Of a stretch of DNA of 64,000 bases, positions 9,001 through 53,078 are shown one piece after another. The stretch is taken from the IMG/VR virus record IMGVR_UViG_3300037504_000288; one strand, 5' to 3'. A model generated the notes under the pieces. The model was given only the letters and a program-made list of their open reading frames with translations, had not been told where the DNA came from and ran no database searches. The stretch's first letter is position 1. Every line of letters begins with the position of its first letter. Made by a program: the position numbers and the translations under genes. The DNA is from a virus.

Positions 9001-9900
9001 GACTTTGTCATCCTGACTGCCCACGTACACGTAACCGCCGCTGACCGTCGGGGATGACCAAACATCACTTCCTGTAGTGTAGTTGTTAACAAGGCTCATG
9101 TCACTAGCGTTGAGCTGGTAGACTTTGTCATCATTACTACCAACGTACACATAACCATCGCTGACGGTCGGGGATGACCTAACATAACTTCCTGTAGTAT
9201 AACTATTAACAAAACTCATGTCGCTAGCGTTTAACTGGTAGACTTTGTTATCATAACTGCCAACGTACACGTAACCGCCGCTGACCGTCGGGGATGACCT
9301 AACATCATCTCCTGTAGTGTAGCTGTTGACAATGCTCATGTTACTAGCGTTGAGCTGGTAGACTTTGTCATCATGACTGCCAACGTACACGTAACCGTCG
9401 CTGACCGTCGGGGATGACTTAACATCATCTCCTGTAGTGTAACTATTAACAAAGCTCATGTCGGTAGCGTTTAACTGGTAGACTTTGTCATCATAACTGC
9501 CAACGTACACATAACCGTCGCTGACCGTCGGGGATGACCTAACATCATCTCCTGTAGTGTAGCTGTTGACAAGGCTCATGTCACTAGAGTTGAGCTGGTA
9601 GATTTTGTCATCCAAACTGCCCACGTACACGTAACCATTACTGACCGTCGGTGATGACTCAACACCACTTCCTGTAGTGTAGCTTCTAATCTCAGGAGTT
9701 CTACTATAGAAGCTAACGTTCATTGAATCAAGGTCAGCGTCAGTGACGGTCGCTGACAACTGCACGTAATCCAGGTACGTGGTGTAATTATCAGGCGGTG
9801 ATAAACTCTCGATGACAGGCGACGCAGCTATTACTACATCAACTACAGTGAATAATGATAGAATTATTATAAAAATGAGTAATATTAATCGCTTGTTCAC
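1..9900 (-). CDS. giant secreted surface/adhesin-like protein (partial: >3,290 aa in window, C-terminus lies beyond window start); Ig-like modules + three 8-bladed PQQ-type beta-propellers
   Basis: Minus-strand frame opens after an in-frame TAG (9946-9948) with GTG at 9900 and is free of stops down to position 1; the ORF track lists no minus-strand M..stop ORF >71 aa in 1..9900, which is only possible if this frame has no stop inside the window. Translation: signal peptide VNKRLILLIFIIILSLFTVVDVVIAASP; repeated ~70-aa modules (TPPxV...C.A.DxDGD.V.Y.Y.WY.N / C.A.DGD.YS.W.NSS); three arrays of eight ~40-aa repeats SSPTVSDGYVYVGSxDDKVYQLNAxDMSxVNSYTTG (PQQ-like propeller blades). I hand-translated ~8470->5740 contiguously without stops. 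Confidence 0.7.
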   Translation of the reverse strand, partial: MNKRLILLIFIIILSLFTVVDVVIAASPVIESLSPPDNYTTYLDYVQLSATVTDADLDSMNVSFYSRTPEIRSYTTGSGVESSPTVSNGYVYVGSLDDKIYQLNSSDMSLVNSYTTGDDVRSSPTVSDGYVYVGSYDDKVYQLNATDMSFVNSYTTGDDVKSSPTVSDGYVYVGSHDDKVYQLNASNMSIVNSYTTGDDVRSSPTVSGGYVYVGSYDNKVYQLNASDMSFVNSYTTGSYVRSSPTVSDGYVYVGSNDDKVYQLNASDMSLVNNYTTGSDVWSSPTVSGGYVYVGSQDDKVYQLNATDMSLVNNYTTGDNVLSSATVSDGYVYVGSWDEKVYQLNASDMSFVNSYTTGLDVWSSPTVSNGYVYVGSFDDKVYQLNANNISKNPSELLHNETNVANGTTVTYDWTGLSNDTTYSWSAEVSDQTSTTETEIQSFEVQSQEPPVIESLSPPDNYTTYLDYVQLSATVTDADLDSMNVSFYSGTPENRSYTIGDYVKSSPTVSNGYVYVGSFDNKVYQLDASDMSFVNSYTTGSLVFSSPTVSDGYVYVGSHDDKVYQLNASDMSFVNSYTTGSVVRSSPTVSDGYVYVGSEDNKVYQLNASDMSLVNSYTTGSYVYSSPTVSDGYVYVGSYDNKVYQLNATDMSFINSYTTGGNVYSSPMVSDGYVYIGSEDNKVYQLNATDMSLVNNYTTGSYVWSSPTVSGGYVYVGCADDKVYQLNATDMSLVNSYTTGDNVESSPTVSGGYVYVGSFDNKVYQLDATDMSLVNSYTTGSVVKSSPTVSDGYVYVGSYDDKVYQLNADNISKNPSELLHNETNVANGTTVSYDWTGFDDGHNYSWYAEVTDGVNTTTSEVREFTLDEQYTLISNNSSMVSVYGVKNGGGNLSIVYIVDEDGTHDYYGKECTTDLSSCSSEVLLYDSVSDLDNLLDMTYNNATHVTFFRGDSFNDVQATTCDNDLTNCNIVEIFVEGRSKNYIEVGYLNDDYQFAHHTSSGEVDPGIKIFDNEFSSYYSNSTINGVSLVTNKQGRADTDVIFIGDNRFNFVMSDGDYGFHQFNCEYNDSSLSDCNVVNFETFSSPATQLQQTRTTRLGDNVVTIYLDNDPGTANTDNIKFINCSINGTDCSASSSLLNNTLEIIDMKAISDNYFSVVLFNNSNSKLQDYLFDKNFNLNRMTTFNEETNFMDYVDINNTYYGELFVSSNTNTAVLNYVAFDVPPFIENISITPESPLSSQNLTGVCDAVDDDGDAVYYDYWWSVNDAVVATTQNLTTTDYSKDDNVTFACQANDGEQYSYNETFEVTILNTPPFMEEADVTPSEPGLDDELVADCNASDYDDDVVLYEYEWYHDGVYYANGSVLSADNTSLGSEYLVSCRGYDGDDYSDWLNSSAVQVSELLLIVNNPGDSSVVDTDSPMLNVTVYNDEGGDATVSFYNYTLDIGDDWLYNDSLVDGISTGSSDGMSVAVYQLDDDNWYATVINSTSETFTSYKIVNGAWSLHEPITSGITMPNTDFFYHVEFQRFNDEEYLFVSDGDNDSVFKFNYSSGAFESTTDYNGFDPGTQWEFDVFELDSEMYLIHDDRGPVGFKYNEDSSAWESNNTIVSGLASGWPRDGVPEAFTDENGELQLITVKRTSDVVNGYSWNGSGWDSNSTVVQNMSFDSLEDSYLNGNYVIIEGIPRFYYGYIGGVSAFEMSTVGDVALLQANSGVAHSETSTYEWQGLSKNTEYEWMVGVDNGVESVMQGPYSFTTGNYSVEAFVNEPVYSNESATGYCTDAFGTATGYSYHWEVDNTTSDDLRLLYDDGVILDNTSNLVSNLANPSSIIGFENYTSDGVSEFTGVNTGTGGGDYGTVGTNTLSVVAGEEYLLSFNLTVNDGTLNYVNTKLDDNFLAGTQSNIESFTTEGFKTARLVAESTGNYRVNIYADNSFYVNITVSNISVVRVNNTLSDDSANSNDATLRGATVASDGLEFDGVDDYGVINNDESINFGTGSFTVYVKGAFTKEGSTQEIIGKKPDDFNGAGWQLLKDSGSNFFFRIADGSNNVYSNSGGSLAADDYKKLAVVVDRAAGEFRMYNDGVLTDTVDISSVTGSVSNANDAYLMNRRGVSDYAEGLVLEVAVFDEALTTGEVQGLGMDDDELSRGYYSKGDDIRISCVATNGSENSSRVYSDYTTVSNTAPVVDEVYYEPVPPRSNETLTGHCAASDYDNDSVSYEYRWADDDGAVVELEQLSPSNETHYYNGEFSSYDVTGYDNYVVYVYGTGLDYNSTHKSYMNVFLYNESLESVESEFARDDSFEGYSYADSDGEYLYAITYSGGLEAVEYDGSSFEVTDYNDAHEHLQLYYDNGSLYTITSDDKIIVYENDEGNLSQTTVYNNVAELDNDTDVYSQKIKAEDGTIVVTSGDSRAGLYEHGAGMVSKLDAITTTGVYYNAVVDGETVYLFKDDGSNTVIERYNVSTGAFVNNGSFSMDNDSIDDRLVEREVGYWDAQLVSGYLFATMEYPDAERNETLYVINFEGEELETATNIVSDYLLVDATYLYTMHTKHDGSLFLSGDYNHKVSYFSDSLNYTSFAKGDNITFECRGFDGEDYSAYETSGSYTVLNTPPAVNNVSVTPGSFDTTDDISIVCDAVDVDDSDVISYGYEWYVNNTSAGTAQELNSTNFAKGDDIIGSCRAFDGDNYSDWVNSSVYNTGNSVPEIVSSQIIPASPKSNETLTSNCTGYDADSEELVYNQTWYVNEASVLSDNETLDTSYYSHFDNVTLECRAFDGDNYSNPLNSTIVEILNTPPIVNNISFDPAIVYGNSTVNMTCNAEDYDSDVITGYEYAWYVNGDEVLDEFSEPISYTIGDYVKSSPTVSNGYVYVGSFDNKVYQLDASDMSFVNSYTTGSLVFSSPTVSDGYVYVGSHDDKVYQLNATDMNFVNSYTTGSVVRSSPTVSDGYVYVGSQDDKVYQLNASDMSLVNNYTTGSYVYSSPTVSDGYVYVGSWDDKVYQLNASDMSLVNSYTTGDNVYSSPTVSDGYVYIGSEDNKVYQLNATDMSLVNSYTTGSYVWSSPTVSGGYVYVGCADDKVYQLNATDMSLVNSYTTGDNVESSPTVSNGYVYVGSVDNKVYQLNASDMSLVNSYTTGSVVKSSPTVSDGYVYVGSYDDKVYQLNADNISDFSYSYNNSSLTSSEFEAGDVLTGSCRASDSYDYSLWYNETSLTVLNTPPSVDNAWFEPSPPLSNESVQGYCNGTDYEDDTLNYYYEWFVNDALVSTDSFLTHDYYDKSDELVLGCQASDSNSNSTKKNSSVATVLNTPPVMNAT
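450..1410 (-). repeat. array of eight 120-bp in-frame tandem repeats (beta-propeller blades); ~93-95% nt-identical to 7480..8440
   Basis: Direct reading: unit ...agcgtt(g/t)a(g/a)ctggtagactttgt(c/t)atc...acgtacac(g/a)taacc...gaccgtcggggatga...cctgtagtgtagctgttgacaaggctcatgtc repeated every 120 bp. Confidence 0.9.
7480..8440 (-). repeat. second array of eight 120-bp tandem repeats; near-identical copy of 450..1410
   Basis: Line-by-line comparison of 7501-7900 with 481-880 shows only scattered substitutions. Confidence 0.9.
8740..9700 (-). repeat. third, more divergent array of eight 120-bp repeats (N-proximal propeller)
   Basis: Same 120-bp periodicity and conserved core gaccgtcggggatga / ctggtagactttgtcatc. 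Confidence 0.85.
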
Positions 9901-9960
9901 AATGTACCACCGGGTCTTCGTAATCGAATAATAACTATACGTATTCTAAAGACACTACTC

Positions 9961-19928: not shown

Positions 19929-20284
19929 TTGGGACCTTTAAGAACCCAGTAATCGTCAAGGTACAAGTAAAAATCGTCCTCTGAATAATCATAACAATAA
20001 TAAACGTTAACACCAAGCGACGAGTTAGTAGTGACGATGTAATAATCACGGTCTGGATGTAATAATAACACTAGCCCGAACCTCGTGCCTGGAACCCTGA
20101 TTCGCCAAATCCTACCCTGTTTGATAAGCCTGGAAACGCGACGCCGCAATACTAACTGCACGCTACCGTTATCACGATAATCGCCTAGGATGGTGTAATA
20201 ACTATGAGGGGTTTCTTTAACAACTGATATTATGTTGTCATCATCATACACCACGCTCCTAACGTCTACTTTGCAACTTCGCAT
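19847..20284 (-). CDS. hypothetical protein (145 aa)
   Basis: ORF track; start overlaps stop of upstream ATPase fragment (ATGA). Confidence 0.4.
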   Translation of the reverse strand: MRSCKVDVRSVVYDDDNIISVVKETPHSYYTILGDYRDNGSVQLVLRRRVSRLIKQGRIWRIRVPGTRFGLVLLLHPDRDYYIVTTNSSLGVNVYYCYDYSEDDFYLYLDDYWVLKGPKWSRWVHKLDSLKLLKSDGREGGVMIW

Positions 20285-20871
20285 TATGAAATTTTCTCCT
20301 CCCTAACCTTATTAACAACTTGTTTAGCGTCCATCAGCAAATTCTGAACGTGCTTTTTACTAATAGGAATATCGTACTGGTTCTTGATATGTAATATGAT
20401 ACGGTTCATGCTGAACGTTGTGTCGTTCATCATGACATCCTGTAACGCTAACATTAACAACGACTTATGAACGTCCTCGGTGGTCAGTGTGTCACGCGCT
20501 ATGTCATCGTCGTAAACGTTAGACTCACGAATTTGCAAGTATTTATCATACAACCACTTCGGCGGTTTCGGGAACCTTATAACCTTCCAGAAATTAGGGT
20601 GCTTCCTAAGCTTCTTCTCAATCTTCTCAAGGCTGGTGAACTCGGTGTACGAGCCCACGTTCTTGAAATCTTTAATACGCCACGGGTCGTTGACCGGGTT
20701 CTTATCCTTAACATAGATAGCGCCAAGACCACGCCCAAACAGGTCGCAATTATGAACAACCATATTATTTGCAACAAAATTATGGTTATCTTTGACACCG
20801 ATAATATCGTAAACATCTTCTTTTTGGTCTAATTTAGTAATAGATTTTATATTAACCAACATATCTATCAC
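20284..20871 (-). CDS. IntC-like segment (41 aa) + C-extein (~154 aa) of the P-loop ATPase
   Basis: MIDMLVNIKSITKLDQKEDVYDIIGVKDNHNFVANNMVVHN|CDLFGRGLGAIYV...; GTG start immediately after an in-frame TGA; overlaps the upper ORF by 20 nt. Confidence 0.55.
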   Translation of the reverse strand: MIDMLVNIKSITKLDQKEDVYDIIGVKDNHNFVANNMVVHNCDLFGRGLGAIYVKDKNPVNDPWRIKDFKNVGSYTEFTSLEKIEKKLRKHPNFWKVIRFPKPPKWLYDKYLQIRESNVYDDDIARDTLTTEDVHKSLLMLALQDVMMNDTTFSMNRIILHIKNQYDIPISKKHVQNLLMDAKQVVNKVREEKIS

Positions 20872-21787
20872 CTTTACTCAAATTGTCTTGTGCCCATAAT
20901 GGTTGCAAATTTTTATAATTAAAACATTTATACCTTTCATCTTCTTTAGTTAAATCAAAATGTGAGCATGGAATAATATGGTCAAGATTCCATGTATCTT
21001 TACCCCAATTAACCCAACTCATTCCAGGTTTAAATTGTTTAGAAATATGAATTTTAAAATATTCTATCGAACAACCTAAATATTTAAATATTGATTGAGT
21101 TTTTTTTGTTTTATTTTTTCTCAATTCAGTGTTTAGTCTACTACGAATCACTTTTGATATTTTATAATTAATATTTAATAAAGATTTTTTTTCATGATTT
21201 CTTATTTTTTCTCTATTTTTTTTTCTATATTCACTATGTTTTTTTAAAATATCTTCTCGATTATTATAATAATTTTTTTTTAATTTTTTTAATATTTCAT
21301 TATATTTTTCATAATATCTTTTTCTACAACGATGTTTATTATCTTCTCTATTTATTTCTCTATATTTTTTATTATAATTATATTGTCTTTCTGTTCTCAC
21401 ATTAAATGCGTTCTTACATTTTTCTGAACAATAAATTTGTTGTTGTTTTTTTGGTAAAAAATCTTTTTTACACCAATTGCATTTTTTTGTTTTAACTTCT
21501 ACTTTATCATCTTCTGACAAATCTTTTAACCTAATCCATCCACGTTGTGTTAAAAATGGGTGGTCTTCAGTACATTTAATTTTCAATCCATTTTCTAATT
21601 CTAATTCATAAATTTCAGCATTTTTCTTTGTTTTAATTTTTTTTTCATATTTTTTAAATTCATACTCTTTTGTTTTTTCATTAAAACTCAACACTTCAGG
21701 ATTATATTTATTCAATTTTTTAACCGGTGTATTTCTAATCATTCCATTAATATCACGAGTTTTTATTTTAGTATCACCTGTAACACA
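20749..21787 (-). other. intein 2 with HNH homing-endonuclease domain, interrupted by a +1 frame change at ~20852-20871 (split or frameshifted)
   Basis: Starts CVTGDTKIK (codon 332 of upper ORF); terminal blocks VYDIIGVKDNHNFVANNMVVHN followed by Cys+1 are in ORF 20284..20871 in the +1 frame. Confidence 0.55.
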
Positions 21788-22780
21788 CCAATAATTTACA
21801 AATGAATTATGCACAACAAAATTATTGGCTATATAATTATGATTATCTTCAACATCTAATATATCATAAACATTTTTTTTATCTTTACATTCTATAGATA
21901 ATATTTTAGTATACGATAAATCATTTAATTTTATTTCGTCATTAATTTTTATTTCATGTAAATGTTTCCAACCATTGTATGTCATAAATCTATGGTTTTT
22001 TGTTGCTAATATTTTTGTATTAGATTGTGTAATAATCTCATAAACATAATCTGTTTTTGTTTTTATACAACTTTTTGCATTTTTTAATTCTAAGGTGTTT
22101 AATTTTTCATTTAAAGTATAAACTTTAAAATTTTGTTTACCTTCTAAATCTTTTATTTTAATATCACCAAATTCGGTTTTTATTAAAGTGTCACCGTCTA
22201 AACACTCTAAATAGTTTTTCTCCATCTTATAAATCTTCAACGGGAACGCTAAGATGAAGAATAAATGTTTAGTTCGTACCTCGGCGAGCTTCCGACGCAA
22301 TTCTTTACTCTCACTTTTTGCCCAATCAGCGGATGAGGCAAACCGTACTGCCTCGTCACAAACCAACGGCTCGAACTTATTCAATGAATCAACCTTGTCC
22401 ATGACGTCCTTATTACTATACGCAAAATGCCTTTTAGGGTCGAACCGTATCCCTATCAACTTACACCACTCGCGCGCTAATAATAGGGCCGCCGAACTCT
22501 TACCGGTTCCTTTATCACTTGTTAGTAGTAACATACTATCGAAGTTCGCAAGGTTACGATGAAGTATGTGTTTGACGAATAATTTGAACACTTCATACTT
22601 ATCAAACTTGTTATCGACTTTAGCTTTAGTCTCGTATTCTATCATTTCTTGAATGATAAAAAGAACATCGTTTATACTAAGCTTGACATCCTCGGGGGTG
22701 TCAGTGTTCCAATTTTTTTTTATAATTTCTAAAATAACCCTTTGTCTAGCAAATCCCAATCCTTGAGACACTATTATCAC
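20852..22780 (-). CDS. P-loop NTPase (putative DNA-packaging/terminase-like ATPase), N-extein + mini-intein + 6-aa linker + N-part of HNH-intein
   Basis: Walker A LLLTSDKGTGKSSAAL and Walker B PLVCDEA in first 192 aa; then CLDGDTLIKT...NVYDILDVEDNHNYIANNFVVHN|S (intein blocks A,B,F,G), then SFVNYW, then CVTGDTKIKTRD... containing an HNH module (CNWCKKDF...CSEKC...DHIIPCSHF...N) up to the stop at 20852. GTG start at 22780 overlaps the TGA of the upstream small gene. Confidence 0.6.
   Translation of the reverse strand: MIIVSQGLGFARQRVILEIIKKNWNTDTPEDVKLSINDVLFIIQEMIEYETKAKVDNKFDKYEVFKLFVKHILHRNLANFDSMLLLTSDKGTGKSSAALLLAREWCKLIGIRFDPKRHFAYSNKDVMDKVDSLNKFEPLVCDEAVRFASSADWAKSESKELRRKLAEVRTKHLFFILAFPLKIYKMEKNYLECLDGDTLIKTEFGDIKIKDLEGKQNFKVYTLNEKLNTLELKNAKSCIKTKTDYVYEIITQSNTKILATKNHRFMTYNGWKHLHEIKINDEIKLNDLSYTKILSIECKDKKNVYDILDVEDNHNYIANNFVVHNSFVNYWCVTGDTKIKTRDINGMIRNTPVKKLNKYNPEVLSFNEKTKEYEFKKYEKKIKTKKNAEIYELELENGLKIKCTEDHPFLTQRGWIRLKDLSEDDKVEVKTKKCNWCKKDFLPKKQQQIYCSEKCKNAFNVRTERQYNYNKKYREINREDNKHRCRKRYYEKYNEILKKLKKNYYNNREDILKKHSEYRKKNREKIRNHEKKSLLNINYKISKVIRSRLNTELRKNKTKKTQSIFKYLGCSIEYFKIHISKQFKPGMSWVNWGKDTWNLDHIIPCSHFDLTKEDERYKCFNYKNLQPLWAQDNLSKGDRYVG
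21806..22204 (-). other. mini-intein 1 (133 aa; Cys1 ... His-Asn, +1 Ser)
   Basis: Codons 193-325 of ORF 20852..22780; block A CLDGDTLI, block B-like ATKNHRF, blocks F/G VYDILDVEDNHNYIANNFVVHN. Confidence 0.65.
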
Positions 22781-32587: not shown

Positions 32588-33154
32588 ATGAAAAAGGATT
32601 TATTAGTGTTCGATGTCGAGACTGGCGGTCTCAATAGTTTTGTTAACGGGATGGTCACGATAAGTTTGAAAGTTTACGGTAAGAATTTAGAGGAGACTAT
32701 CGTAGTGCGTCCTAATCAGACGCTAGCTTACGACGCAAGGGCATTGTCTATCAACGGCTACACCAAGGTTATGATGACAGACCAAGGTGTTTCCGAGCAG
32801 GAGGCGGTTGACCGAGTTGTCAATTTCATACGTCGTAATTTCGATAGCAAGCCGAACCTGTTAGCGCACAATATAGTGTTCGACGTGCAGTTCATGAACG
32901 CGTTGTTCAACAGGGTCGGTCACCCGCGATTGTTCACAGAGTATTGCTACTATCACCCGCAGGACACTATGATTATAATGAGTTTTCTTAAGGATTCAGG
33001 GTTGATAAACGCTAGCCGTGTTAATCTCATGGATAGTTATAAGTACTTCCATGACGGAAAAGGGTTCGATAACGCGCACACTAGTATCGCTGACGTGCGC
33101 GCCACCGAGGCGTTGTACACTAAGATTAAAAGGTTCTTAGCGAGCTTGAAATGA
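32588..33154 (+). CDS. DEDDh 3'-5' exonuclease (DnaQ/epsilon-like)
   Basis: Exo I LVFDVETGGL, Exo II AHNIVFDVQF, Exo III HTSIADVRATEALY (H-x4-D). Confidence 0.65.
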   Translation: MKKDLLVFDVETGGLNSFVNGMVTISLKVYGKNLEETIVVRPNQTLAYDARALSINGYTKVMMTDQGVSEQEAVDRVVNFIRRNFDSKPNLLAHNIVFDVQFMNALFNRVGHPRLFTEYCYYHPQDTMIIMSFLKDSGLINASRVNLMDSYKYFHDGKGFDNAHTSIADVRATEALYTKIKRFLASLK

Positions 33155-35322: not shown

Positions 35323-36750
35323 ATGACATTCAATATAGACAAAATCCTAGGCACTAAAAAATCGAAGAATGCACCGTCTTTTTCTAACATGACGCTTTCT
35401 AACACTTTCGGTAAGAACAAGTTCTCCGATATGATAGGCGGTCTCACAAAAAAACCGTTACATAACATGGGTGCTTCGATGGAAATGCAGAATAAATGGA
35501 AGGGTATGACCCACCAGCAGCGTAACACTGCCAGGCGCAAGTATAAGGATAGCGACGGCGACAGGGTGCCTGACATGTTCGATTGTCAGCCTCATAATAT
35601 AATGCGCCAGGACTTCACGCCGTTCCGTGACCATACCAAAGCCGAGGGCATGAGCGCGGCGCGCCGGTTCGGCGGTCGTAACCTTAAAGGTCTCAAGAAG
35701 CTCGGTAGCGGCCGTGACCGCGACGTTTACGAGCTTGACAAGGACAAGGTTTTGAAGGTCGCTAAGAACCCGGGCGGTCTGTCGCAGAACGCTTCGGAGT
35801 CAGAGGTGGAGATTTGGGACCTCGGCAAGCATTACGAGACCGGCAAGGATTACGTTGTGATGCAACGTAACAAGCCGTTGTCCAAGCAAAATAAGCAAAA
35901 GCTCGCGATGGTGCGTAAGGAGGCTGGTAAAGTGCCTTATAAGAGGTCGCGTCAGGAGTACTTGAGCAACGTTAAAATGCGTTTATCGTCCGAGAATAAC
36001 GTGCTCGACAGCGCCGGTATTGGCACCGACGTACTCAATTATGATTTCACGCCTGATGAGCTGTTCGCTAACCGTCAATGGGGCGAGGACGCCGAGGGTA
36101 ACTTGCAACTCAACGACGGCGGCGCATTACAAACCGGTGATTCGTTGTCTAAGTATAGGGTTAAGGATTTCAAGAGTGACGACTGGCAATCCCATGAGTG
36201 GCGAGATGTGCAACAGCAGCGTCGCGAGTATAGGGACCGTGGCACGTTCGACGAGCAGCGCAAGCAGCGTCGCGGTTATCCGCAAGCGAGTTATCAAGAT
36301 GCTGCCGAGTTCTTCGATTCCGACGACCAACTTCAAGGTGATGATAATGTTACATTATACCACGGTACTAGGAAAGATTTTTTAGACAGTATAAAAGAAA
36401 AAGGGCTTGTTCGGAAATCAGGCGGTATGAACGATGGTGCTAAAGTGTACCTGACAGGCAGTCGTGAGGTCGCTATGCACCATGCAAGGCAAGGTCCGGA
36501 ATATGAAGCATACTCACAACCGTACCAGAACATTGATTTGTTTGACACTATGCAAAACAAAGACTCACGAGAGTACGATGAGCCTGAAGGTGCGGTGTTG
36601 GAAGTGCAAGTTCCAAGGCGGGATTTGACAGACGAGCAATTACAACAGTTAGAGACTGACCCGGACAGTGTTTATGAGATACCTTATTCTAAGGATATAC
36701 CAGCGGAGAAGGTTAATGTTTGGGAGTCTCAAGGTGAAAAAAATGTTTGA
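35323..36750 (+). CDS. toxin-like protein A: N-terminal FNIDKILG leader, C-terminal ART-fold (H-G-T) domain
   Basis: MTFNIDKILGTKK...; C-terminal LYHGTRKDFLDSIKEKGL...VYLTGS...AVLEVQV (cf. diphtheria toxin SYHGTKPGYVDSIQKGI, PARP/Tpt1 H-G-[ST]). Track start 35296 rejected (inside promoter). Confidence 0.5.
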   Translation: MTFNIDKILGTKKSKNAPSFSNMTLSNTFGKNKFSDMIGGLTKKPLHNMGASMEMQNKWKGMTHQQRNTARRKYKDSDGDRVPDMFDCQPHNIMRQDFTPFRDHTKAEGMSAARRFGGRNLKGLKKLGSGRDRDVYELDKDKVLKVAKNPGGLSQNASESEVEIWDLGKHYETGKDYVVMQRNKPLSKQNKQKLAMVRKEAGKVPYKRSRQEYLSNVKMRLSSENNVLDSAGIGTDVLNYDFTPDELFANRQWGEDAEGNLQLNDGGALQTGDSLSKYRVKDFKSDDWQSHEWRDVQQQRREYRDRGTFDEQRKQRRGYPQASYQDAAEFFDSDDQLQGDDNVTLYHGTRKDFLDSIKEKGLVRKSGGMNDGAKVYLTGSREVAMHHARQGPEYEAYSQPYQNIDLFDTMQNKDSREYDEPEGAVLEVQVPRRDLTDEQLQQLETDPDSVYEIPYSKDIPAEKVNVWESQGEKNV

Positions 36751-38881
36751 CATAGACAAAATTTTAGGATATAAAAAGAAAAATAATAATATAAACACTA
36801 AAAAAATGTTTAATAATTTGAAACCTATTAAAGAGACCAAAATTTCAGGGAAACCTGTACAGATATTTAATAATAACCCAATACCTAAAAGAAGCACTAT
36901 TAAGAACGCTTATGATAAAATCCCTGACGACACGAATATCCCGTTACAGTTTATGACGCGTAAACAGTATTTAAAAAAATACGTTAACAATCAGGAGCGT
37001 AAGAACGGAGTCAAGTTTTCCAAGCAACAGCGCCAGAAGTATTATAAGAACAACAAGGACGAATACGGTAATATAATAGGTCGTTATACTACGGAAAAAA
37101 ACCCGTATTACAAACCGGCAGTCGTTGTGTTTAATGACAAGTCTAACTTTAAAAATATCAAAGGTGATGGTTTTAAGAAGTTTGCATGGCACGAGTTCGG
37201 TCACGAGTTCGTCGAAGACCACGGTGTTAAGATGCCAAAAATGCGTGAGGAGCAATTCGCAAACCATATTGAAAAATACGGCACAAATGGTAAAGAGTTC
37301 GACGCAGGACGTGCCAAAAAACGGCTTAATAAAATGAGCGTTGGTATAACCGATGATACTAGTTCTAAAAACTCGGAGGATGTTAATGAATTGTTTCAGA
37401 GGATGCAGTCTGTCCTTGATAATCCTGATAAAGAACTTGATAGTATGCGACAATCAGATGCTGTTAAATCAAAGGATACTGAACAGTATTATAAATCCTT
37501 AAAAAACAGAGATTTTGAAGGTTTGAGTGATGAAGCGAGACAAAATTTACAAGAAATTATGCAGACTGAGAATAAGCCGATATCACGCTACCATAAAAAA
37601 TCTACTGTAAAAGGACAGTTATCAGAAGGCGAGTATGAGTATAGACAACAATTACCACAACAAATATTTGGCAAGGATTATATTGATTTGAATAATAATG
37701 AGAAGAATAGAATAAGGGATATGCGTATAGAAAGAGATGCTAGCTATAAACAAATTCCTGGAAATGATGAGCATTCAGAGAATAAAATATTTTATCATGG
37801 TACAAATAAACAAAACATAGAATCAATTAAAGAAAAGGGTTTAAAACCCAATTTTAGTACAACTAGTGATTATTCAAAAACAGGTAAAGTATATTTATCA
37901 CCATCAGAAAAATATGCAGCATTGTATGCTCAAGAAAATTTTTCTAATCCAACAGTATTAAAAATCGATGTGGATTCTGATATAGATGAGTCTCGTGAGT
38001 ATGATGGTGATATTGATTCAGATAAAGTATTATCTTATAGGGATGTATCAAGAAATTTCATGGATGTTTATAATGAGTCTGAACAAAAAAATTGGGTGCC
38101 GTTAAAAGATACTGATTCCAAAAATGATACAAAAGAACGCCAACAAATGAAAGGACGACATTGGACAACTTCAGGTAAGCTACATCCTTGGCAGAAGAAT
38201 CTTGTCGGACTGGCAAGACAATCTAAAGATTCCAATGAATTTTTATATTATAAGGATTATGGAAGACCAGTCCATTTAACAAGAGAAGATAAAGAAGATT
38301 TTAAATTATCGCAAGAGAAAGGAAGTCGTGATATGAGTTCGATGGGCAGCAACCATGAACAGAAAGGTAGTATAATGTTTACAAACGATTTAGGTTATTG
38401 GGATTCGCATTATAATAATTATGATTATAATTGGGAGACTGGAAAGGAAGAATATGAGCATTCTAAAGAAGAAGATTTGACAAGACCTACTGTGGCTGTT
38501 ATTGACTTGAGCGGTTCAGAGAAAGATAAGGCTTTTGTGAATGCAAACCGTGGTTTTGGCGACGAACATTTTGTAGAGGATGTTAATAAAATAGGCGTTC
38601 AAGAAGTTAATGATATAGAAGTGGAGCGTAATAAACAGAAAGAATTTGAAGAAAAGTTTGATTTTCAAAATGTTCAGGAGATTAAACAGTTTTATGAACT
38701 TGCTAATAGCGAGGAAGGAAAACGATTATTAGAAAATGATGAATATTCAAAGAATAAAATATTTTATCATGGAACGAGTAAAGAAAATAGACCACTCCCA
38801 GGCGGTAATAGTCAGATGAGTGATAATGAATATATTTCTTTAGAGGTTGTTTCTGAAGATATAATAGAAGAACCAAGGTGA
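36743..38881 (+). CDS. toxin-like protein B: FDIDKILG leader, zincin-like HEFGHEFVEDH motif, two ART-fold (H-G-T) repeats
   Basis: MFDIDKILGYKK...; FAWHEFGHEFVEDHG (HExxH + H at +6, metzincin spacing without Gly); IFYHGTNKQNIESIKEKGL...VYLSPS and IFYHGTSKENRPLP; ATG overlaps stop of gene A (ATGTTTGA). Confidence 0.5.
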   Translation: MFDIDKILGYKKKNNNINTKKMFNNLKPIKETKISGKPVQIFNNNPIPKRSTIKNAYDKIPDDTNIPLQFMTRKQYLKKYVNNQERKNGVKFSKQQRQKYYKNNKDEYGNIIGRYTTEKNPYYKPAVVVFNDKSNFKNIKGDGFKKFAWHEFGHEFVEDHGVKMPKMREEQFANHIEKYGTNGKEFDAGRAKKRLNKMSVGITDDTSSKNSEDVNELFQRMQSVLDNPDKELDSMRQSDAVKSKDTEQYYKSLKNRDFEGLSDEARQNLQEIMQTENKPISRYHKKSTVKGQLSEGEYEYRQQLPQQIFGKDYIDLNNNEKNRIRDMRIERDASYKQIPGNDEHSENKIFYHGTNKQNIESIKEKGLKPNFSTTSDYSKTGKVYLSPSEKYAALYAQENFSNPTVLKIDVDSDIDESREYDGDIDSDKVLSYRDVSRNFMDVYNESEQKNWVPLKDTDSKNDTKERQQMKGRHWTTSGKLHPWQKNLVGLARQSKDSNEFLYYKDYGRPVHLTREDKEDFKLSQEKGSRDMSSMGSNHEQKGSIMFTNDLGYWDSHYNNYDYNWETGKEEYEHSKEEDLTRPTVAVIDLSGSEKDKAFVNANRGFGDEHFVEDVNKIGVQEVNDIEVERNKQKEFEEKFDFQNVQEIKQFYELANSEEGKRLLENDEYSKNKIFYHGTSKENRPLPGGNSQMSDNEYISLEVVSEDIIEEPR

Positions 38882-49560: not shown

Positions 49561-50000
49561 AAATCACCAATTTATTCATTTTAGTGTTTTTATTGATGAT
49601 GTTAATCAGTATGACTTTAGGGAGCGAGAGTCGTCAGTCCGGGATGACGTTGGAGGAGGTCGTTGTGGTTGCCGAGGAGTCGATGAGCGTTAACACTTCC
49701 GAGTTCAATATTCAAACTATTAACGGCACCGAGAACGCTACCGAGCTGTCCAGTAAATACACAACTAACATGGTCAACCAAGCGGTAGTGGGAGTGCTGG
49801 ACAGTTTATTCTCGATGTCCAAATATTCGATAGTGCAAGGGTACACTTACGACGGCGAGATTGATTTAATAAGCATGGTCAGGCTGATAACAATATGTTT
49901 CATTATCTATATACTGTTCATACCGGTGCTGATAGTATCGTTCTTGATAGTGTACGGGGTTAGAAGAATAATTAGGAAAAAAGAGGGTTTGAAAGAATGA
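49557..50000 (+). CDS. membrane protein (147 aa; N-terminal signal/TM and C-terminal TM)
   Basis: ITNLFILVFLLMMLISM and ITICFIIYILFIPVLIVSFLIVYGV. Confidence 0.45.
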   Translation: MKITNLFILVFLLMMLISMTLGSESRQSGMTLEEVVVVAEESMSVNTSEFNIQTINGTENATELSSKYTTNMVNQAVVGVLDSLFSMSKYSIVQGYTYDGEIDLISMVRLITICFIIYILFIPVLIVSFLIVYGVRRIIRKKEGLKE

Positions 50001-52582
50001 CTGATAACGATGATGTATTAATATACGACCTTGAGACAGAGGTGGTCGGTTTCAAGCCTGACGGTGAGAAGGATATATTGCGAGTGTTCGGGTTCTACTC
50101 TTACAAGAACGACAAGTTCGGGATTCTACCGTATTACAAGAAGGAGGCTATTAAGAAAGTGTTGGACAGTCATAAGTTCTTAGTAGGGTTTAATAATAAG
50201 AATTACGACGATGCCATCCTCAAAAGGTCCGGGTACGATGTCAAGTATAAAATCAGTATCGACCTTTTGGAGCTTGTCAAGAAACGTGCAGGCGTTATAA
50301 CAATAGGTAAAGGTAGTGTCAAGGATAATCTTATGCGGTACCGGCTCGATGATATAACCAGGTTCTTGAATATAGTTGATGACGAGACCGCGAAGGAAGA
50401 GATTGATTATGATATTTTTAAGAAGACGAGCTGGAACAAGGCAGAGATAGCTGAGATTAAGAAGTACACTATCCGTGACATTGAAATCACCAAGAAATTG
50501 TATGAATGGTTGGAGGAATATTTCGAAGGGTTCAAAGAGTTCGTTAACAAAGAGGATATTAAAAAAAAGAAATACTTGACCGACACCATTGCTAATTTCG
50601 CGTACAAGGCTATTTGTAAAGATATGGATTGGGAGCCGGTCTATAACAGGGACGCCGAGGATATCCCAGAGGATGAGAAGATTAGCGGTGGGTACGTGGC
50701 GTTCCCGGCAGGCGAGCGGTTCGAAGGTAACCTGGTGCAGTTGGATTTTTCAAGTTTGTACCCGCACGTTTTAATTCAAGGTAACCTGTTAGGGCGTAAC
50801 AAGAACACTAATGAAGGCTGGCACGGTGGCGGTAAGTGGGAAGTTCAGGGTTTCTATAACGATAAAGAGCTTAGCGGCGTGAGTAAACTGATTAGAAAAT
50901 GGTATTTTCTGAGACTGCATTATAAGAGGAAAGGAATACTTGAAAACAACGACGAGTTCAAGTACAAGAACGCAGAAAAACACATTGGCGAGAAGTATTA
51001 TTTTATACATGAGAAGAACGGAACTACCGTTTTGGAACTTCGCGAAATAACCAAGAGTGTGGCTGATGAGTTGTTGAGTTATCACAATCAAGGAGTTGAC
51101 CCTCGTCAGTACACTATTAAAATCATTATTAATACCTGTTACGGTATCCTTAACACACCGTATTACAAGCTAATCCATGACGAGGTTGCTGGCGGTGATT
51201 GTACTAGAATAGGCCGTCAATGGACGAAGTACGCTCGTAAAGTGTTCCGTGAAGAAGGGTATAATTTATTGTATTCCGATAGCGTAAGTAAAGACTCTAA
51301 AATCAGATTACGAGACGGTAAACAAATAACTGTTAATGAATATTGGAACAAATATACATTTAATAAAATTACTAATGGTAAAGAATATGCGATGTGTAAC
51401 AAAGAAATTTTAACATGTGATGAAAATTTCAAGAATGTCTTAAAAGTGCCAGATTATATTATAAGACATAAAACTAAAAAGAAAATGTTTAAAATATGGC
51501 TGACAAACGAAAAACACGTGTCTGTTACAGAGGACCATAGTTTGATAACAATTAATCCAGAAACACAAAAATATGATGTTATTAAACCAAACGAAATTAA
51601 TGACAAAAAATATGTGTTGTTAAATTCACACAATGTGCGAGATATATATAGAACATCTATATATTCTGAAAATAAATCAACTTATATAAATAAAAACAAA
51701 AGAATATTATCAACTAATTTAATAACAGAAATTGAGTCTGATTTTAAATTGTGTAATGTTAAAAAAGTTGAGGAATATTATACGGATGATTATGTTTATG
51801 ATTTTTCTATTAAAGGAATAGAAAAATTTTATGCAAATGATGTATTAGTTCATAATACCGACAGTTGGTATTTTGAGGATGTTTATGATGATATGGACAA
51901 GGTTATGGATACCAAGGATAAAGTCATTAAAGACATCAAAGATACCATGCCGTTCCCGCAACCGACCTTTAACGCTGACGTCGATAGCGAGATGAAATAC
52001 ATGTTTTTTTTCAAAGGCGATGAGAAAGATTTTGATACTAAAGAGTTCGACGAGGATGATTGGAAGAATTATAAGAAAGGGTTCATGAAGAAGAACTATA
52101 TCTATGTCGACAAGTACACTAGCGAAATCACTTTGAAGAACCTCGGTGTTAAGAAGAAGAGTATTAGCGCGCTATCCAAGAAAATATTCTGGGATTACAT
52201 GGTGCCCGAGATTAAGAAGGGTGTTGTCAAATTCAGTAAAACCTGGGTTGATAATTTAATGATTAAACTGTTACAGGAGAACATTGAGTATGCGTTCTTC
52301 AGGAAGGACGTTAAACCGCTGACTCATTATAAGAAGTCAATGACCGGCATCCATGCCAAGTTCAGTAAACGCTACGGTCCAGGCATCCATTTTGTAATCC
52401 CTAACAATAAAGGCGTAGGGGTTGGCGATAAGACCACGTACTGCTCGTACGAGGAGTTCAAGGAGAAGCGAATGGGAATCTCAGACATTGACATGACACC
52501 GTTCTGGAAGGAGCTCAAGTATTTCATCAAGGAGCCGAAGACAGTTTCGATATTCGACTATGAAGGCGTCAAGAGGCGATAA
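49997..52582 (+). CDS. polB: family B DNA polymerase containing a mini-intein in motif C
   Basis: Exo I LIYDLETE, Exo II FNNKNYDDAIL, Exo III YTIRDIEIT; Pol motif A LVQLDFSSLYPHVLI, motif B KIIINTCYGILN, motif C LLYSD|intein|TDSWYF (=YxDTDS). Extein ~669 aa. Confidence 0.85.
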   Translation: MTDNDDVLIYDLETEVVGFKPDGEKDILRVFGFYSYKNDKFGILPYYKKEAIKKVLDSHKFLVGFNNKNYDDAILKRSGYDVKYKISIDLLELVKKRAGVITIGKGSVKDNLMRYRLDDITRFLNIVDDETAKEEIDYDIFKKTSWNKAEIAEIKKYTIRDIEITKKLYEWLEEYFEGFKEFVNKEDIKKKKYLTDTIANFAYKAICKDMDWEPVYNRDAEDIPEDEKISGGYVAFPAGERFEGNLVQLDFSSLYPHVLIQGNLLGRNKNTNEGWHGGGKWEVQGFYNDKELSGVSKLIRKWYFLRLHYKRKGILENNDEFKYKNAEKHIGEKYYFIHEKNGTTVLELREITKSVADELLSYHNQGVDPRQYTIKIIINTCYGILNTPYYKLIHDEVAGGDCTRIGRQWTKYARKVFREEGYNLLYSDSVSKDSKIRLRDGKQITVNEYWNKYTFNKITNGKEYAMCNKEILTCDENFKNVLKVPDYIIRHKTKKKMFKIWLTNEKHVSVTEDHSLITINPETQKYDVIKPNEINDKKYVLLNSHNVRDIYRTSIYSENKSTYINKNKRILSTNLITEIESDFKLCNVKKVEEYYTDDYVYDFSIKGIEKFYANDVLVHNTDSWYFEDVYDDMDKVMDTKDKVIKDIKDTMPFPQPTFNADVDSEMKYMFFFKGDEKDFDTKEFDEDDWKNYKKGFMKKNYIYVDKYTSEITLKNLGVKKKSISALSKKIFWDYMVPEIKKGVVKFSKTWVDNLMIKLLQENIEYAFFRKDVKPLTHYKKSMTGIHAKFSKRYGPGIHFVIPNNKGVGVGDKTTYCSYEEFKEKRMGISDIDMTPFWKELKYFIKEPKTVSIFDYEGVKRR
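51281..51856 (+). other. mini-intein (192 aa) inserted in PolB motif C (pol-c site)
   Basis: Starts SVSKDSKIRL (Ser1), block B VSVTEDHSLI, blocks F/G DDYVYDFSIKGIEKFYANDVLVHN, +1 Thr. Confidence 0.7.
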
Positions 52583-52586
52583 AAAA

Positions 52587-53078
52587 ATGACCAGGTACAT
52601 TATAGGAATCGACAACGGCGTGAATGGCGGTATCGTCGTGCTTGATAAGGATGTTAATAATATTGTTTTCAAGACGGTGATGCCGGTGTTCGGCAAGAGT
52701 AAGAAGGAGTACGACGTGCAAACGATATCCGGCGTTTTGAAATCGTTCAAGGAAGATTCGAACGCGTACCTGGAGCGTGCGCAGCCGCAATACCGTGACG
52801 GTAAGAAGCAAGCTTTCAAGACAGGCTACGGGTTCGGCGTCATGGAAGGTGTTTTAGCAGCGCTCAACATCCCGTACTTCGTCGTCGCGCCGAAGGTGTG
52901 GCAGAAGAGAGTGTTCGCAGGTTTGCAGTCTAACGACACGAAACTCGCTAGCTTGATGTTTTGTAAACGCACATGGCCGACTGTCGACTGGACGCCTACC
53001 GTGAGGGCTAACAAGGCGCATGATGGGCTGACCGACGCAGCGTGCTTGGCGTATTACGGTGGTATCAATGGGTTTTAA
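52587..53078 (+). CDS. RuvC-like Holliday-junction resolvase
   Basis: MTRYIIGIDNGVNGGIVVL (RuvC motif I hhGIDpG), C-terminal AHDGLTDAACLAYYG (cf. RuvC DAADALAIA). Confidence 0.55.
   Translation: MTRYIIGIDNGVNGGIVVLDKDVNNIVFKTVMPVFGKSKKEYDVQTISGVLKSFKEDSNAYLERAQPQYRDGKKQAFKTGYGFGVMEGVLAALNIPYFVVAPKVWQKRVFAGLQSNDTKLASLMFCKRTWPTVDWTPTVRANKAHDGLTDAACLAYYGGINGF

What the first reader, a model, noticed from the sequence alone, without database searches (positions are those of the whole stretch)
49997..52582. Family-B DNA polymerase with a mini-intein splitting the YxDTDS catalytic motif
Motif C is split into LLYSD and TDSWYF by a 192-aa element that starts with Ser, has a TxxH block (VSVTEDHSLI) and ends ...FYANDVLVHN followed by Thr. 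This is the classic pol-c intein insertion point. Without the intein the polymerase is compact (~669 aa). All three exonuclease motifs are present, yet a separate DnaQ-type exonuclease gene (32588..33154) is also encoded.
Basis: partly seen in the sequence, partly recalled or inferred. Interest (0 to 1): 0.55.

Follow-up and report, generated by a model that had tools for sequence, protein, structure and literature searches.

The report
Self-splicing mini-intein in viral DNA polymerase
The DNA polymerase gene of this uncultured virus is interrupted, exactly inside its catalytic YxDTDS motif, by a 192-residue self-splicing protein element (a "pol-c" mini-intein); this kind of element is well known, here found in a previously undescribed virus lineage.

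Summary
ORF 49997..52582 (+) encodes an 861-aa family-B DNA polymerase precursor. Residues 429-620 (nt 51281..51856) are a 192-aa intein lying between D428 and T621 of motif C (YSD|TDS).

- **Intein models:** the insert passes the curated thresholds of two intein models, and its predicted structure matches only intein/HINT structures.
- **Catalytic residues:** all class-1 residues are present: Ser1, the R-H "NX" motif, TxxH, the block-F Asp, His-Asn and Thr+1.
- **Relatives:** its closest relatives among 1.84 billion proteins are nearly all inteins at the same YxD|TD[SG] site of PolBs.
- **Empty site:** 114 of 120 PolB homologues lack an intein at this site and have a contiguous Y[ST]DTDS. One strain pair, 93% identical in DNA, differs only by exact presence or absence of the homologous mini-intein.
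- **Host protein:** the spliced 669-aa enzyme models confidently as a PolB with invariant exonuclease and polymerase residues, but it lacks about 130 N-terminal residues of archaeal enzymes.
- **Context:** an uncharacterised virus with archaeal-type PCNA and RFC.

This is a new member of a known kind.

Extras: the intein is far more AT-rich than its host gene (GC3 0.18 against 0.55). A P-loop ATPase gene elsewhere in the window carries two more inteins, one apparently split across two ORFs.

The parts
49997..52582 (+). Gene for the 861-aa (102.0 kDa) family-B DNA polymerase precursor, stop codon included
   Evidence: ORF list. Pfam DNA_pol_B and Intein_splicing both score above their cutoffs. 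The identical protein P0001 is in the public collections. Masses computed.
49997..51280 (+). N-extein, aa 1-428. It holds the 3'-5' exonuclease domain (ExoI D11/E13, ExoII D71, ExoIII Y157/D161), motif A (D250, S253, Y255), motif B (K375, G383) and the first half of motif C, ending in catalytic D428.
   Evidence: These residues are invariant in the 93-sequence alignment A1. Structure model and PDB fold matches.
51281..51856 (+). Pol-c mini-intein, 192 aa (22.9 kDa). Key residues: Ser1 (S429), NX motif R62-H63, block B T83-x-x-H86, block F D174, H191-N192. GC is 24.0% and GC3 0.18, against 41.6% and 0.55 in the exteins.
   Evidence: all these residues invariant among 5 mini-intein homologues; relatives sit at the same site; HINT fold.
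51638..51733 (+). Linker inside the intein (intein aa 120-151), predicted disordered. It sits where full-length relatives (P0095, P0121) carry a LAGLIDADG endonuclease domain, so it is read as a remnant of a deleted endonuclease. It is 12-22 aa longer than in the other mini-inteins.
   Evidence: pLDDT below 50 for residues 120-151. Intein alignments. Sequences of P0095 and P0121.
51857..52582 (+). C-extein, aa 621-861 plus the stop codon. It starts with Thr+1 of TDS (spliced numbering T429, catalytic D430, S431) and contains the KxY motif (K507-N508-Y509 in spliced numbering) and the thumb.
32588..33154 (+). Separate DEDDh (DnaQ/RNase T-like) 3'-5' exonuclease gene mentioned in the finding (context)
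   Evidence: Pfam RNase_T 28.1 bits against cutoff 24. NCBIfam epsilon-subunit and PolC exonuclease models match at E 1e-9 to 1e-10, below their equivalog cutoffs. Motifs visible in the translation.
44804..45568 (+). PCNA-type sliding clamp (replisome partner, context)
   Evidence: Pfam PCNA_N 21.3 bits against cutoff 20.3. NCBIfam archaeal sliding clamp PRK01115 at 54.8 bits, E 1e-14, below its cutoff.
45793..46686 (+). RFC small-subunit-like clamp loader (context)
   Evidence: NCBIfam 'replication factor C small subunit' at 190.7 bits, E 3e-56, against 78 bits for bacterial DnaX. Pfam AAA and DNA_pol3_delta2.
52560..53078 (+). RuvC-like Holliday junction resolvase immediately downstream, overlapping the polymerase stop (context)
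   Evidence: PHROG 1770, 77.4 bits, E 2e-21.

Best explanation
The gene encodes a replicative family-B DNA polymerase made as an inactive 102-kDa precursor. A 192-residue class-1 mini-intein sits between the two catalytic aspartates of motif C (D428 | intein | T-D430-S).

Inferred splicing pathway, the standard oxyester route of Ser1/Thr+1 inteins:
1. Ser1 attacks the D428-S429 peptide bond (N-O acyl shift). The block-B T83xxH86 and the Ser1-specific NX motif R62-H63 assist.
2. Thr+1 takes over the N-extein by transesterification.
3. Asn192, helped by His191 and the block-F Asp174, cyclises and releases the 22.9-kDa intein.
4. An O-N shift leaves a normal peptide bond, giving a 669-aa, 79.1-kDa polymerase with an intact YSDTDS.

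The intein has no homing endonuclease. It descends from a LAGLIDADG-bearing pol-c intein that still exists in sister polymerases. It persists because only exact removal restores an essential active site. It can move only passively, by recombination between co-infecting relatives, possibly helped by endonucleases of full-length relatives.

Shown here: the boundaries, the fold, the catalytic residues, the site and the existence of an empty allele. Inferred: the actual splicing and the mode of spread.
For: - **Intein HMMs above curated cutoffs:**
- **Structure:** the model is confident for intein residues 1-119 and 152-192. All 50 listed PDB matches are inteins or related HINT/intein-like domains (TFIIB mini-inteins, Aes123 PolB1, RadA, CDC21, TvoVMA), with TM 0.70-0.79 for the top ones.
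- **Catalytic residues:** S1, R62, H63, T83, H86, D174, H191 and N192 are invariant in five homologous mini-inteins that are only 49-56% identical overall to this one. The R/K-H NX motif is the published signature of Ser1/Ser+1(Thr+1) inteins (PMC10189870).
- **Site among relatives:** of 138 relatives with a mappable C-terminal junction, 105 are followed by TD[S/G/C]. 75 of 83 mappable N-terminal junctions are preceded by Asp, most often YGD|S. The ten best hits read in full are all PolBs split at YxD|S...N|TD[S/C].
- **Published site:** the pol-c site is YGD|TDS (PMC549080).
- **Empty site:** 114 of 120 homologues lack an intein at this site and have a contiguous Y[ST]DTDS. P0028 (intein present) and P0021 (intein absent) have exteins 96-97% identical in protein and 93.1% in DNA, differing by exact presence or absence of the 176-aa homologous intein.
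- **Origin from a full-length intein:** full-length LAGLIDADG versions of the same intein occur in the same PolB family (P0095, P0121).
- **Host enzyme:** exonuclease and polymerase residues are invariant. The PolB fold is confirmed.
Against: - No experimental or proteomic evidence of splicing exists. Everything about activity is inferred from conserved residues.
- The window's intein has a unique 12-22-aa extension in the disordered linker, with unknown effect.
- The intein model rests on only five sequences (mean pLDDT 78).
- The strong AT bias of the intein could reflect relaxed constraint, which might precede decay.
- Both assemblies that contain the gene carry the same sample code (SRR12689834), so they may not be independent.
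Confidence: 0.92

Rival explanations
1. The insert is a decaying, splicing-dead HINT remnant. The polymerase gene is then a pseudogene, or yields a disrupted non-functional enzyme, and replication relies on host or other polymerases.
For: The intein evolves faster than its host: 56% against 70% identity to the closest relative P0002. It has an extreme AT bias (GC3 0.18 against 0.55). It also has a lineage-specific linker expansion. All three are compatible with relaxed constraint.
Against: The reading frame is intact over 861 codons. Every catalytic residue of the intein and of the polymerase is retained, and these residues are invariant in relatives. The syntenic relative L019 keeps the same arrangement. 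The gene sits in an operon-like block with PCNA, RFC and a resolvase.
Confidence: 0.05
2. Assembly artefact: the AT-rich 576-bp segment comes from an AT-rich relative (most family members have 24-31% GC) and was wrongly joined into a 42% GC contig.
For: There is a sharp compositional step at both intein boundaries: GC 24% inside against 38-40% in the 300-nt flanks. AT-rich relatives carrying homologous inteins exist.
Against: - The junctions are in frame to the nucleotide and recreate perfect intein termini.
- A JGI and a Logan assembly give the identical 861-aa protein.
- The syntenic 41.6% GC relative L019 from another sample shows the same pattern (intein 22.6% GC).
- The two other inteins in the window are equally AT-rich, so this is a property of the inteins, not of one join.
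Confidence: 0.02
3. The intein is a domesticated post-translational switch (conditional protein splicing) that times or gates polymerase activation during infection. This would add to, not replace, the intein identification.
For: The intein splits the two catalytic aspartates, so the precursor must be inactive (sequence). It is retained without an endonuclease in several diverged lineages.
Against: Most family members (114 of 120) do without it. A near-identical strain lacks it, which argues that it is dispensable. Nothing measured here points to a sensor, although the intein does contain three non-catalytic Cys (C39, C46, C158).
Confidence: 0.07

Closest known systems
Pol-c allele inteins of archaeal family-B polymerases (e.g. 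PI-PkoII / Tko Pol-2 of Thermococcus kodakarensis, PDB 2cw7)
   Same: Same insertion point between YxD and TD[S/G] of motif C, with Ser1, C-terminal His-Asn and Thr+1. There is weak but direct sequence similarity around block B (2cw7, E 0.023) and a structural match (rank 33). The best database relatives are long archaeal-type PolBs with YGD|S...HN|TDS.
   Different: Those inteins are large (PI-PkoII chain 537 aa) and carry a LAGLIDADG homing endonuclease. This one is 192 aa with only a disordered linker in that place. The host polymerase here is about 16-17% identical to the Thermococcales enzymes and lacks their roughly 130-aa N-terminal region.
Mimivirus PolB intein (Ogata et al. 2005, PMC549080)
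   Same: A viral PolB intein at exactly the pol-c position YGD|TDS, showing that this allele type crosses between very distant polymerases.
   Different: The host is a giant eukaryotic virus with a Pol-delta-like enzyme. Here the host is a roughly 70-kb uncultured virus with an archaeal-type PCNA/RFC replisome and a 669-aa PolB.
Cysteine-less PolB inteins Aes123 PolB1 (PDB 9hth) and PolB16 OarG (PDB 8cpo)
   Same: Ser1 oxyester chemistry and the NX motif (K/R-H about 23 residues before the block-B His). Aes123 PolB1 is the best PDB sequence match (E 8.8e-6) and among the best structural matches (TM 0.71/0.79). The NX motif is described in PMC10189870.
   Different: Those are naturally split inteins (trans-splicing), from a phage and a metagenome. 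This one is contiguous (cis-splicing) and contains three non-catalytic cysteines.
Methanocaldococcus TFIIB mini-inteins (PDB 5o9i, 5o9j)
   Same: Closest solved structures (Foldseek E 5e-10, TM 0.71/0.78). They are natural mini-inteins of similar size with a sequence match over most of the length (E 5e-5). PMC10189870 lists MjaTFIIB among Ser1/Ser+1(Thr+1) inteins.
   Different: They sit in a different host protein and at a different insertion site.

Membership tests
Intein (HINT superfamily), class 1 | Splicing-domain profile match above the curated threshold | tested here: met
   Pfam PF14890 scores 43.2 bits in the precursor and 47.7 bits on a fragment covering most of the insert, against cutoff 35.8. 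NCBIfam TIGR01445 scores 27.0 bits against cutoff 24.5.
Intein (HINT superfamily), class 1 | HINT fold | tested here: met
   AlphaFold model: all-beta, pLDDT 81-94 for most 10-residue blocks outside the linker. All 50 listed PDB matches are inteins or related HINT/intein-like domains, best E 5e-10 with TM 0.71/0.78.
Intein (HINT superfamily), class 1 | Nucleophile at position 1 (Cys/Ser), block B TxxH, block F Asp, C-terminal His-Asn, and a nucleophile at +1 (Cys/Ser/Thr) | tested here: met
   S1, T83-E-D-H86, D174, H191-N192 and T+1 are read directly from the sequence. All are invariant in five homologues.
Intein (HINT superfamily), class 1 | In-frame insertion whose exact removal restores a conserved host sequence, with empty-site homologues | tested here: met
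   114 of 120 homologues lack an intein at this site and have a contiguous Y[ST]DTDS. P0021 is an intein-free allele 96-97% identical to the exteins of intein-bearing P0028.
Intein (HINT superfamily), class 1 | Autocatalytic protein splicing actually occurs | not testable with these tools
   Requires expression of the precursor, or junction-peptide mass spectrometry.
Pol-c intein allele of family-B polymerases | Insertion between YxD and TDS/TDG of motif C | tested here: met
   The junction is YSD|S...N|TDS. The site definition YGD|TDS is taken from PMC549080.
Pol-c intein allele of family-B polymerases | Closest sequence relatives are inteins at the same site (allele-specific similarity) | tested here: met
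   The ten best hits read in full are all PolB motif-C inteins. 105 of 138 relatives with a mappable C-terminal junction are followed by TD[S/G/C].
Mini-intein (no homing endonuclease) | Absence of a LAGLIDADG/HNH/other endonuclease domain between the N- and C-terminal splicing regions | tested here: met
   No endonuclease family among the Pfam hits at E<=1. Only a 32-residue low-confidence linker lies where P0095 and P0121 carry about 230-250 aa with LAGLIDADG motifs.
Ser1/Thr+1 oxyester ('cysteine-independent') inteins | NX motif: a conserved His preceded by Arg/Lys, upstream of block B | tested here: met
   R62-H63 is invariant in A2. It aligns with K-H of Aes123 PolB1. The motif definition is taken from PMC10189870.
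Family-B DNA polymerase | Profile match, motifs A (DxxSLYP), B (KxxxNxxYG), C (YxDTDS) and KxY | tested here: met
   Pfam PF00136 scores 36.6 bits against cutoff 23. PHROG 262 'DNA polymerase' matches at E 1e-17. D250, S253, Y255, K375, G383, D428, D430, S431, K507 and Y509 are invariant.
Family-B DNA polymerase | PolB fold with a DEDD proofreading domain | tested here: met
   Model pLDDT 93.2 and pTM 0.87. PDB top hits are KOD/9N/Tgo polymerases at E 1e-24 to 1e-22 with TM 0.58-0.61. D11, E13, D71, Y157 and D161 are invariant.
Archaeal B1/B3-type PolB (Thermococcales-like) | N-terminal domain preceding the exonuclease domain (about 130 aa in KOD-type enzymes; that figure is from my own knowledge) | tested here: not met
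   ExoI DxE lies at residues 11-13, so no room is left for such a domain. The PHROG 262 profile match starts at profile position 246 of 856. Sequence identity to the Thermococcales enzymes is only 16-17%. The enzyme works like these polymerases but is not filed as a member of that subfamily.
DnaQ/RNase T-like DEDDh exonuclease (gene 32588..33154) | Profile match and the motifs DxE, D and Hx4D | tested here: met
   Pfam RNase_T scores 28.1 bits against cutoff 24. FDVETGG, FDVQF and HTSIAD are visible in the translation. NCBIfam epsilon and PolC exonuclease models match only below their equivalog cutoffs.

The most novel reading that the evidence does not exclude
The polymerase intein would be one of three compositionally foreign (20-25% GC) inteins in a roughly 70-kb genome of an undescribed virus lineage with an archaeal-type replisome. 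In that lineage inteins would form an actively exchanging pool. Two observations point that way. Intein-bearing and intein-free alleles exist at 93% DNA identity, with synonymous differences clustered on the three codons next to the homing site. All three classical PolB sites, pol-a, pol-b and pol-c, are occupied in different members. On this reading the neighbouring P-loop ATPase gene also holds a functional natural split intein whose N-part is fused to a nuclease-like domain. That would be a snapshot of how split inteins arise, and a source of new Cys-independent splicing tools.
Probability: 0.3. Interest if true: 0.55.

Novelty: new member of a known kind. Interest (0 to 1): 0.3.

Why it matters
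Pol-c inteins have been known since the 1990s, so the find itself does not change understanding. Its value lies in four smaller points.

- **Annotation:** the mature polymerase is 669 aa, not 861, and the precursor must be inactive until spliced.
- **Range:** the pol-a, pol-b and pol-c intein alleles extend into a large, unnamed family of compact viral PolBs. More than 240 homologues were found, none close to any of 50,697 deposited phage genomes.
- **Natural experiment:** an intein-bearing and an intein-free allele pair at 93% DNA identity, and inteins much more AT-rich than their hosts, bear on how endonuclease-free inteins spread or are lost.
- **Tool candidate:** this is a small intein with Ser1/Thr+1 catalytic chemistry, from an apparently mesophilic (moderate-temperature) source. 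That type is sought for protein ligation under oxidising conditions.

Tried and rejected
- **Word-index search with the intein alone:** it returned no scored hit, not even the source protein. I replaced it with the exhaustive phmmer search.
- **Recent DNA transfer from another intein-bearing relative:** I looked at L006. DNA identity is only 57% in the intein and 50-54% in the flanks, with no conversion tract, so no recent exchange between those two.
- **Protein-primed (phi29-like) PolB:** I considered this because ExoI sits at the extreme N-terminus and the enzyme is small. It is not supported. All 50 listed PDB fold matches are archaeal PolBs (or engineered variants of them) or human Pol alpha, and the genome encodes PCNA and RFC.
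- **Magrovirus identity:** magrovirus polymerases are described as related to halovirus and archaeal B3 polymerases. This PolB is only weakly recognised by Pfam DNA_pol_B, and its listed viral fold matches are remote apart from one unnamed protein. No link was established.
- **Host assignment:** GTDB genomes holding relatives are labelled inconsistently: Thermotogaceae, Planctomycetaceae, Bacilli, Rhodobacter and 'archaeon'. That suggests mis-binned viral contigs. No tRNAs were found. A literature search for Pacearchaeota viruses found nothing.
- **Structural genes and the ATPase:** no Pfam, PHROG, NCBIfam or PDB-sequence match, and no match in the phage collection for the ATPase or the 607-aa protein.
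- **HNH call for the domain inside the second ATPase intein:** my reading rests on a D-H...N...N motif only. Pfam gives no HNH hit even at E<=5, so I call it 'nuclease-like' only.
- **afdb50 fold library:** unavailable.
- **dN/dS between intein homologues:** not attempted, because synonymous sites would be saturated at 49-56% protein identity.
Full report
**Observation**

It has a GAGGG ribosome-binding site about 10 nt upstream, and its start codon overlaps the stop of the preceding ORF.

The protein reads ...EEGYNLLYSD | SVSKDSKIRL ... FYANDVLVHN | TDSWYFEDV... The insert is residues 429-620 (192 aa), nt 51281..51856. Excision leaves 669 aa with an uninterrupted YSDTDS.

**Is the insert an intein?**

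- **Profile models.** Pfam's Intein_splicing model scores 43.2 bits in the precursor and 47.7 bits on a fragment covering most of the insert, against a curated cutoff of 35.8. NCBIfam's intein N-terminal model also passes, 27.0 against 24.5.
- **Solved structures by sequence.** The best match is the Aes123 PolB1 intein (9hth). Then come the Methanocaldococcus TFIIB mini-inteins, and more weakly PI-PkoII, the pol-c intein of Thermococcus kodakarensis.
- **Predicted structure.** An AlphaFold model built on five homologous mini-inteins is confident except for residues 120-151. All 50 listed PDB fold matches are inteins or related HINT/intein-like domains, best E 5e-10 with TM 0.71/0.78.
- **Catalytic residues.** All residues needed for class-1 splicing are present and invariant among the five homologues: Ser1, T83-x-x-H86 (block B), D174 (block F), H191-N192 and Thr+1.
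- **NX motif.** The R62-H63 pair matches the 'NX' motif, a His preceded by Arg or Lys. It was recently described as the signature of Ser1/Ser+1(Thr+1) oxyester inteins (PMC10189870).

**Is it the pol-c site?**

The published definition of the pol-c allele is insertion at YGD|TDS (PMC549080). Here the junction is YSD|TDS.

An exhaustive phmmer search of the intein against 1.84 billion representative proteins found 262 relatives at E<=1e-3. The ten best, read in full, are all family-B polymerases split at YxD|S...N|TD[S/C]. Of 138 relatives whose C-terminal junction could be mapped, 105 are followed by TD[S/G/C]. N-terminal junctions are mostly YGD|S. The intein therefore belongs to the pol-c allele by position and also by descent.

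**Empty sites and mobility**

The spliced polymerase has more than 240 homologues, mostly 600-690 aa. Of the 120 listed, 114 lack an intein at this site and have a contiguous Y[ST]DTDS. Six carry a homologous intein there.

- **Other sites are occupied too.** P0014 has an intein at the classical pol-a site (DFN|C...HN|SLYP). P0008 and P0038 have one at pol-b (NT|C...GQ|CYG).
- **Full-length versions exist.** P0095 and P0121 carry a full-length version of the same pol-c intein, with a LAGLIDADG endonuclease inserted where the window's intein has its disordered linker. The mini-intein is therefore most simply read as an endonuclease-deletion derivative.
- **A near-identical empty allele exists.** In a neighbour-joining analysis the intein bearers are scattered among intein-free sequences. 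P0028 (with intein) and P0021 (without) have exteins 96-97% identical in protein and 93.1% in DNA, with 119 synonymous and 21 non-synonymous differences. They differ by the exact presence or absence of the 528-bp intein.

This pair gives a natural empty site and shows recent gain or precise loss. In the same pair, the three codons immediately 3' of the insertion site all differ synonymously. That is a suggestive but statistically weak hint of a conversion tract or of target-site immunity.

**The host enzyme**

Pfam DNA_pol_B passes its cutoff, 36.6 bits against 23. In a 93-sequence alignment the following residues are invariant:
- ExoI D11/E13, ExoII D71 and ExoIII Y157/D161;
- motif A D250/S253/Y255 and motif B K375/G383;
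- motif C D428/D430/S431 and the KxY motif K507/Y509.

The AlphaFold model is excellent, with pLDDT 93.2 and pTM 0.87. Its best PDB matches are Thermococcales PolBs, followed by human Pol alpha, at E 1e-24 to 1e-19 and 12-17% identity.

Among viral predicted structures only one unnamed 575-aa protein is close (31% identity, E 1e-52). The rest are remote. ExoI at residues 11-13 means the roughly 130-residue N-terminal region of archaeal PolBs is missing. This is a family trait, not a truncation.

Because the intein separates D428 from D430, the precursor cannot be catalytically competent. This is inference.

**Genome context**

The window has two divergent gene blocks, minus strand up to about 27 kb and plus strand from about 29 kb, and no tRNAs. 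Genes near the polymerase:

| Gene | Coordinates | Evidence |
|---|---|---|
| PCNA-type clamp | 44804..45568 | |
| RFC small-subunit-like clamp loader (190.7 bits to the archaeal RFC-S model, 78 bits to bacterial DnaX) | 45793..46686 | |
| PD-(D/E)XK nuclease fused to SF2 helicase | 41802..44261 | |
| RuvC-like resolvase | 52560..53078 | |

Relatives occur in IMG/VR viral contigs up to 116 kb. They also occur in GTDB MAGs with mutually inconsistent taxonomic labels. One relative carries 7-deazaguanine modification genes, and the window has a Tad2-like anti-defence gene.

No deposited phage genome has more than a remote match. I conclude this is an uncharacterised virus lineage with an archaeal-type replisome. 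The host is not established.

The extra DEDDh exonuclease needs no special explanation. The polymerase's own proofreading residues are intact.

**Composition**

The intein has 24.0% GC (GC3 0.18), against 41.6% (GC3 0.55) for the exteins. The step is sharp at both boundaries.
- The syntenic relative L019 (locus GC 41.6%) shows the same pattern, intein 22.6%. The AT-rich relatives L020 and L023 show a smaller gap in the same direction.
- Most family members have 24-31% GC overall.
- The two other inteins in the window are equally AT-rich, at 20-25% GC.

Two explanations remain open. Inteins may circulate from the AT-rich majority of the lineage into this GC-richer branch. Alternatively, AT-biased mutation may show through where selection on codon usage is relaxed.

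An assembly chimera is unlikely. The junctions are exact, two assemblies agree, and a second sample shows the same pattern.

**Verdict**

The feature is a textbook pol-c mini-intein, a new member of a known kind, in a polymerase family and virus lineage that have not been described. Splicing competence is inferred from fully conserved catalytic residues and has not been shown. I set interest at 0.3. A specialist would not be surprised by the element. The intein-rich, compositionally contrasted genome, the natural allele pair with and without the intein, and the possible split intein noted in passing give it some follow-up value.

Noticed in passing
window 20284..22780 (- strand): intein A 21806..22204; intein B N-part plus insert domain 20855..21787; stop codon at 20852..20854; IntC 20749..20862: A P-loop ATPase gene (Walker A TSDKGTGKSS, Walker B LVCDEA) carries two more inteins only 6 aa apart (...KNYLE|CLDGDT...VVHN|SFVNYW|CVTGDT...).

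The second is broken into two overlapping ORFs. The N-part, plus a roughly 200-aa Cys-rich, nuclease-like domain, ends in a stop codon. A 38-aa C-part (MLVNIK...NNMVVHN|CDLFGRG) starts at an ATG 11 nt upstream of that stop, in another frame. That is the layout of a natural split intein, or else a frameshift.

The reconstructed 352-aa extein aligns without gaps to ten contiguous homologues checked, out of many of about 350 aa in the search. Homologues P0308 and P0381 have a contiguous mini-intein at the same NYW|C site. A Logan assembly shows the same two ORFs. Pfam gives no HNH hit for the insert domain.
   Followed up: partly
window 20749..22204 and 51281..51856; L019 11221..11760; L020 11141..12358; L023 (intein within gene 3001..5550): All inteins are markedly more AT-rich than their host genes. 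In the window they have GC 20-25% and GC3 0.10-0.18, against GC3 0.41-0.67 for most neighbouring genes. The same direction is seen in three related viruses. The cause is unresolved: import from AT-rich relatives, or relaxed selection under AT-biased mutation.
   Followed up: partly
L023 gene 3001..5550 against L024 gene 279..2300: These are natural intein-bearing and intein-free alleles of the same PolB, with 93.1% DNA identity over 2022 nt. The three codons right after the insertion site (ACG GAT TCG against ACC GAC TCA) all differ synonymously. This may be a conversion tract or target-site immunity.
   Followed up: partly
L006 1865..5741: A related PolB, binned in a 'Rhodobacter' MAG, has both a pol-c mini-intein and a pol-b intein (KIIIN|CFDETGQ ... 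NWIGQ|TSYG). The pol-b intein is itself interrupted, so the gene lies in two ORFs (1865..3481 and 3576..5741). It also ends in Gln rather than Asn, as do the pol-b inteins of P0008 and P0038.
   Followed up: no
window 1..9945 (- strand): A giant ORF of at least 3315 codons runs off the window start. It is made of many PQQ/BamB-like beta-propeller repeats: Pfam Beta-prop_ACSF4 567 bits in 7 stretches and PQQ_2 288 bits in 11 stretches. It is possibly a huge surface or adhesion protein.
   Followed up: partly
window 36668..38881 (+): A 737-aa protein has sub-threshold matches to ADP-ribosyltransferase-type folds (Tpt1/KptA 23.7 bits, PARP catalytic 23.0 bits). Its GC is unusually low for this genome (33%, GC3 0.29), so it may be a recently acquired gene.
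   Followed up: no
window 62296..62745 (+); window 60001..64000: A Tad2-like (Thoeris anti-defence 2) domain protein scores 31.7 bits against a cutoff of 25. It lies in a 4-kb stretch of 30-31% GC at the window end.
   Followed up: no
L020 54..1676: In a related virus a radical-SAM (QueE-like) gene of a 7-deazaguanine pathway (PTPS, GTP cyclohydrolase I and TGT nearby) also carries an intein with an HNH domain, according to precomputed Pfam hits. This is further evidence that the lineage is intein-rich.
   Followed up: no
window 20284..22780 homologues (P0271-P0389): The same ATPase family carries inteins at four or more different sites in different genomes: inside Walker A (...|TGKSS), at Walker B (EPLI|C...HN|CDEA), after RFA, and at NYW|C. 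The window adds a further site at NYLE|C. Some of these inteins end in Ser-Asn or Ala-Asn instead of His-Asn.
   Followed up: partly
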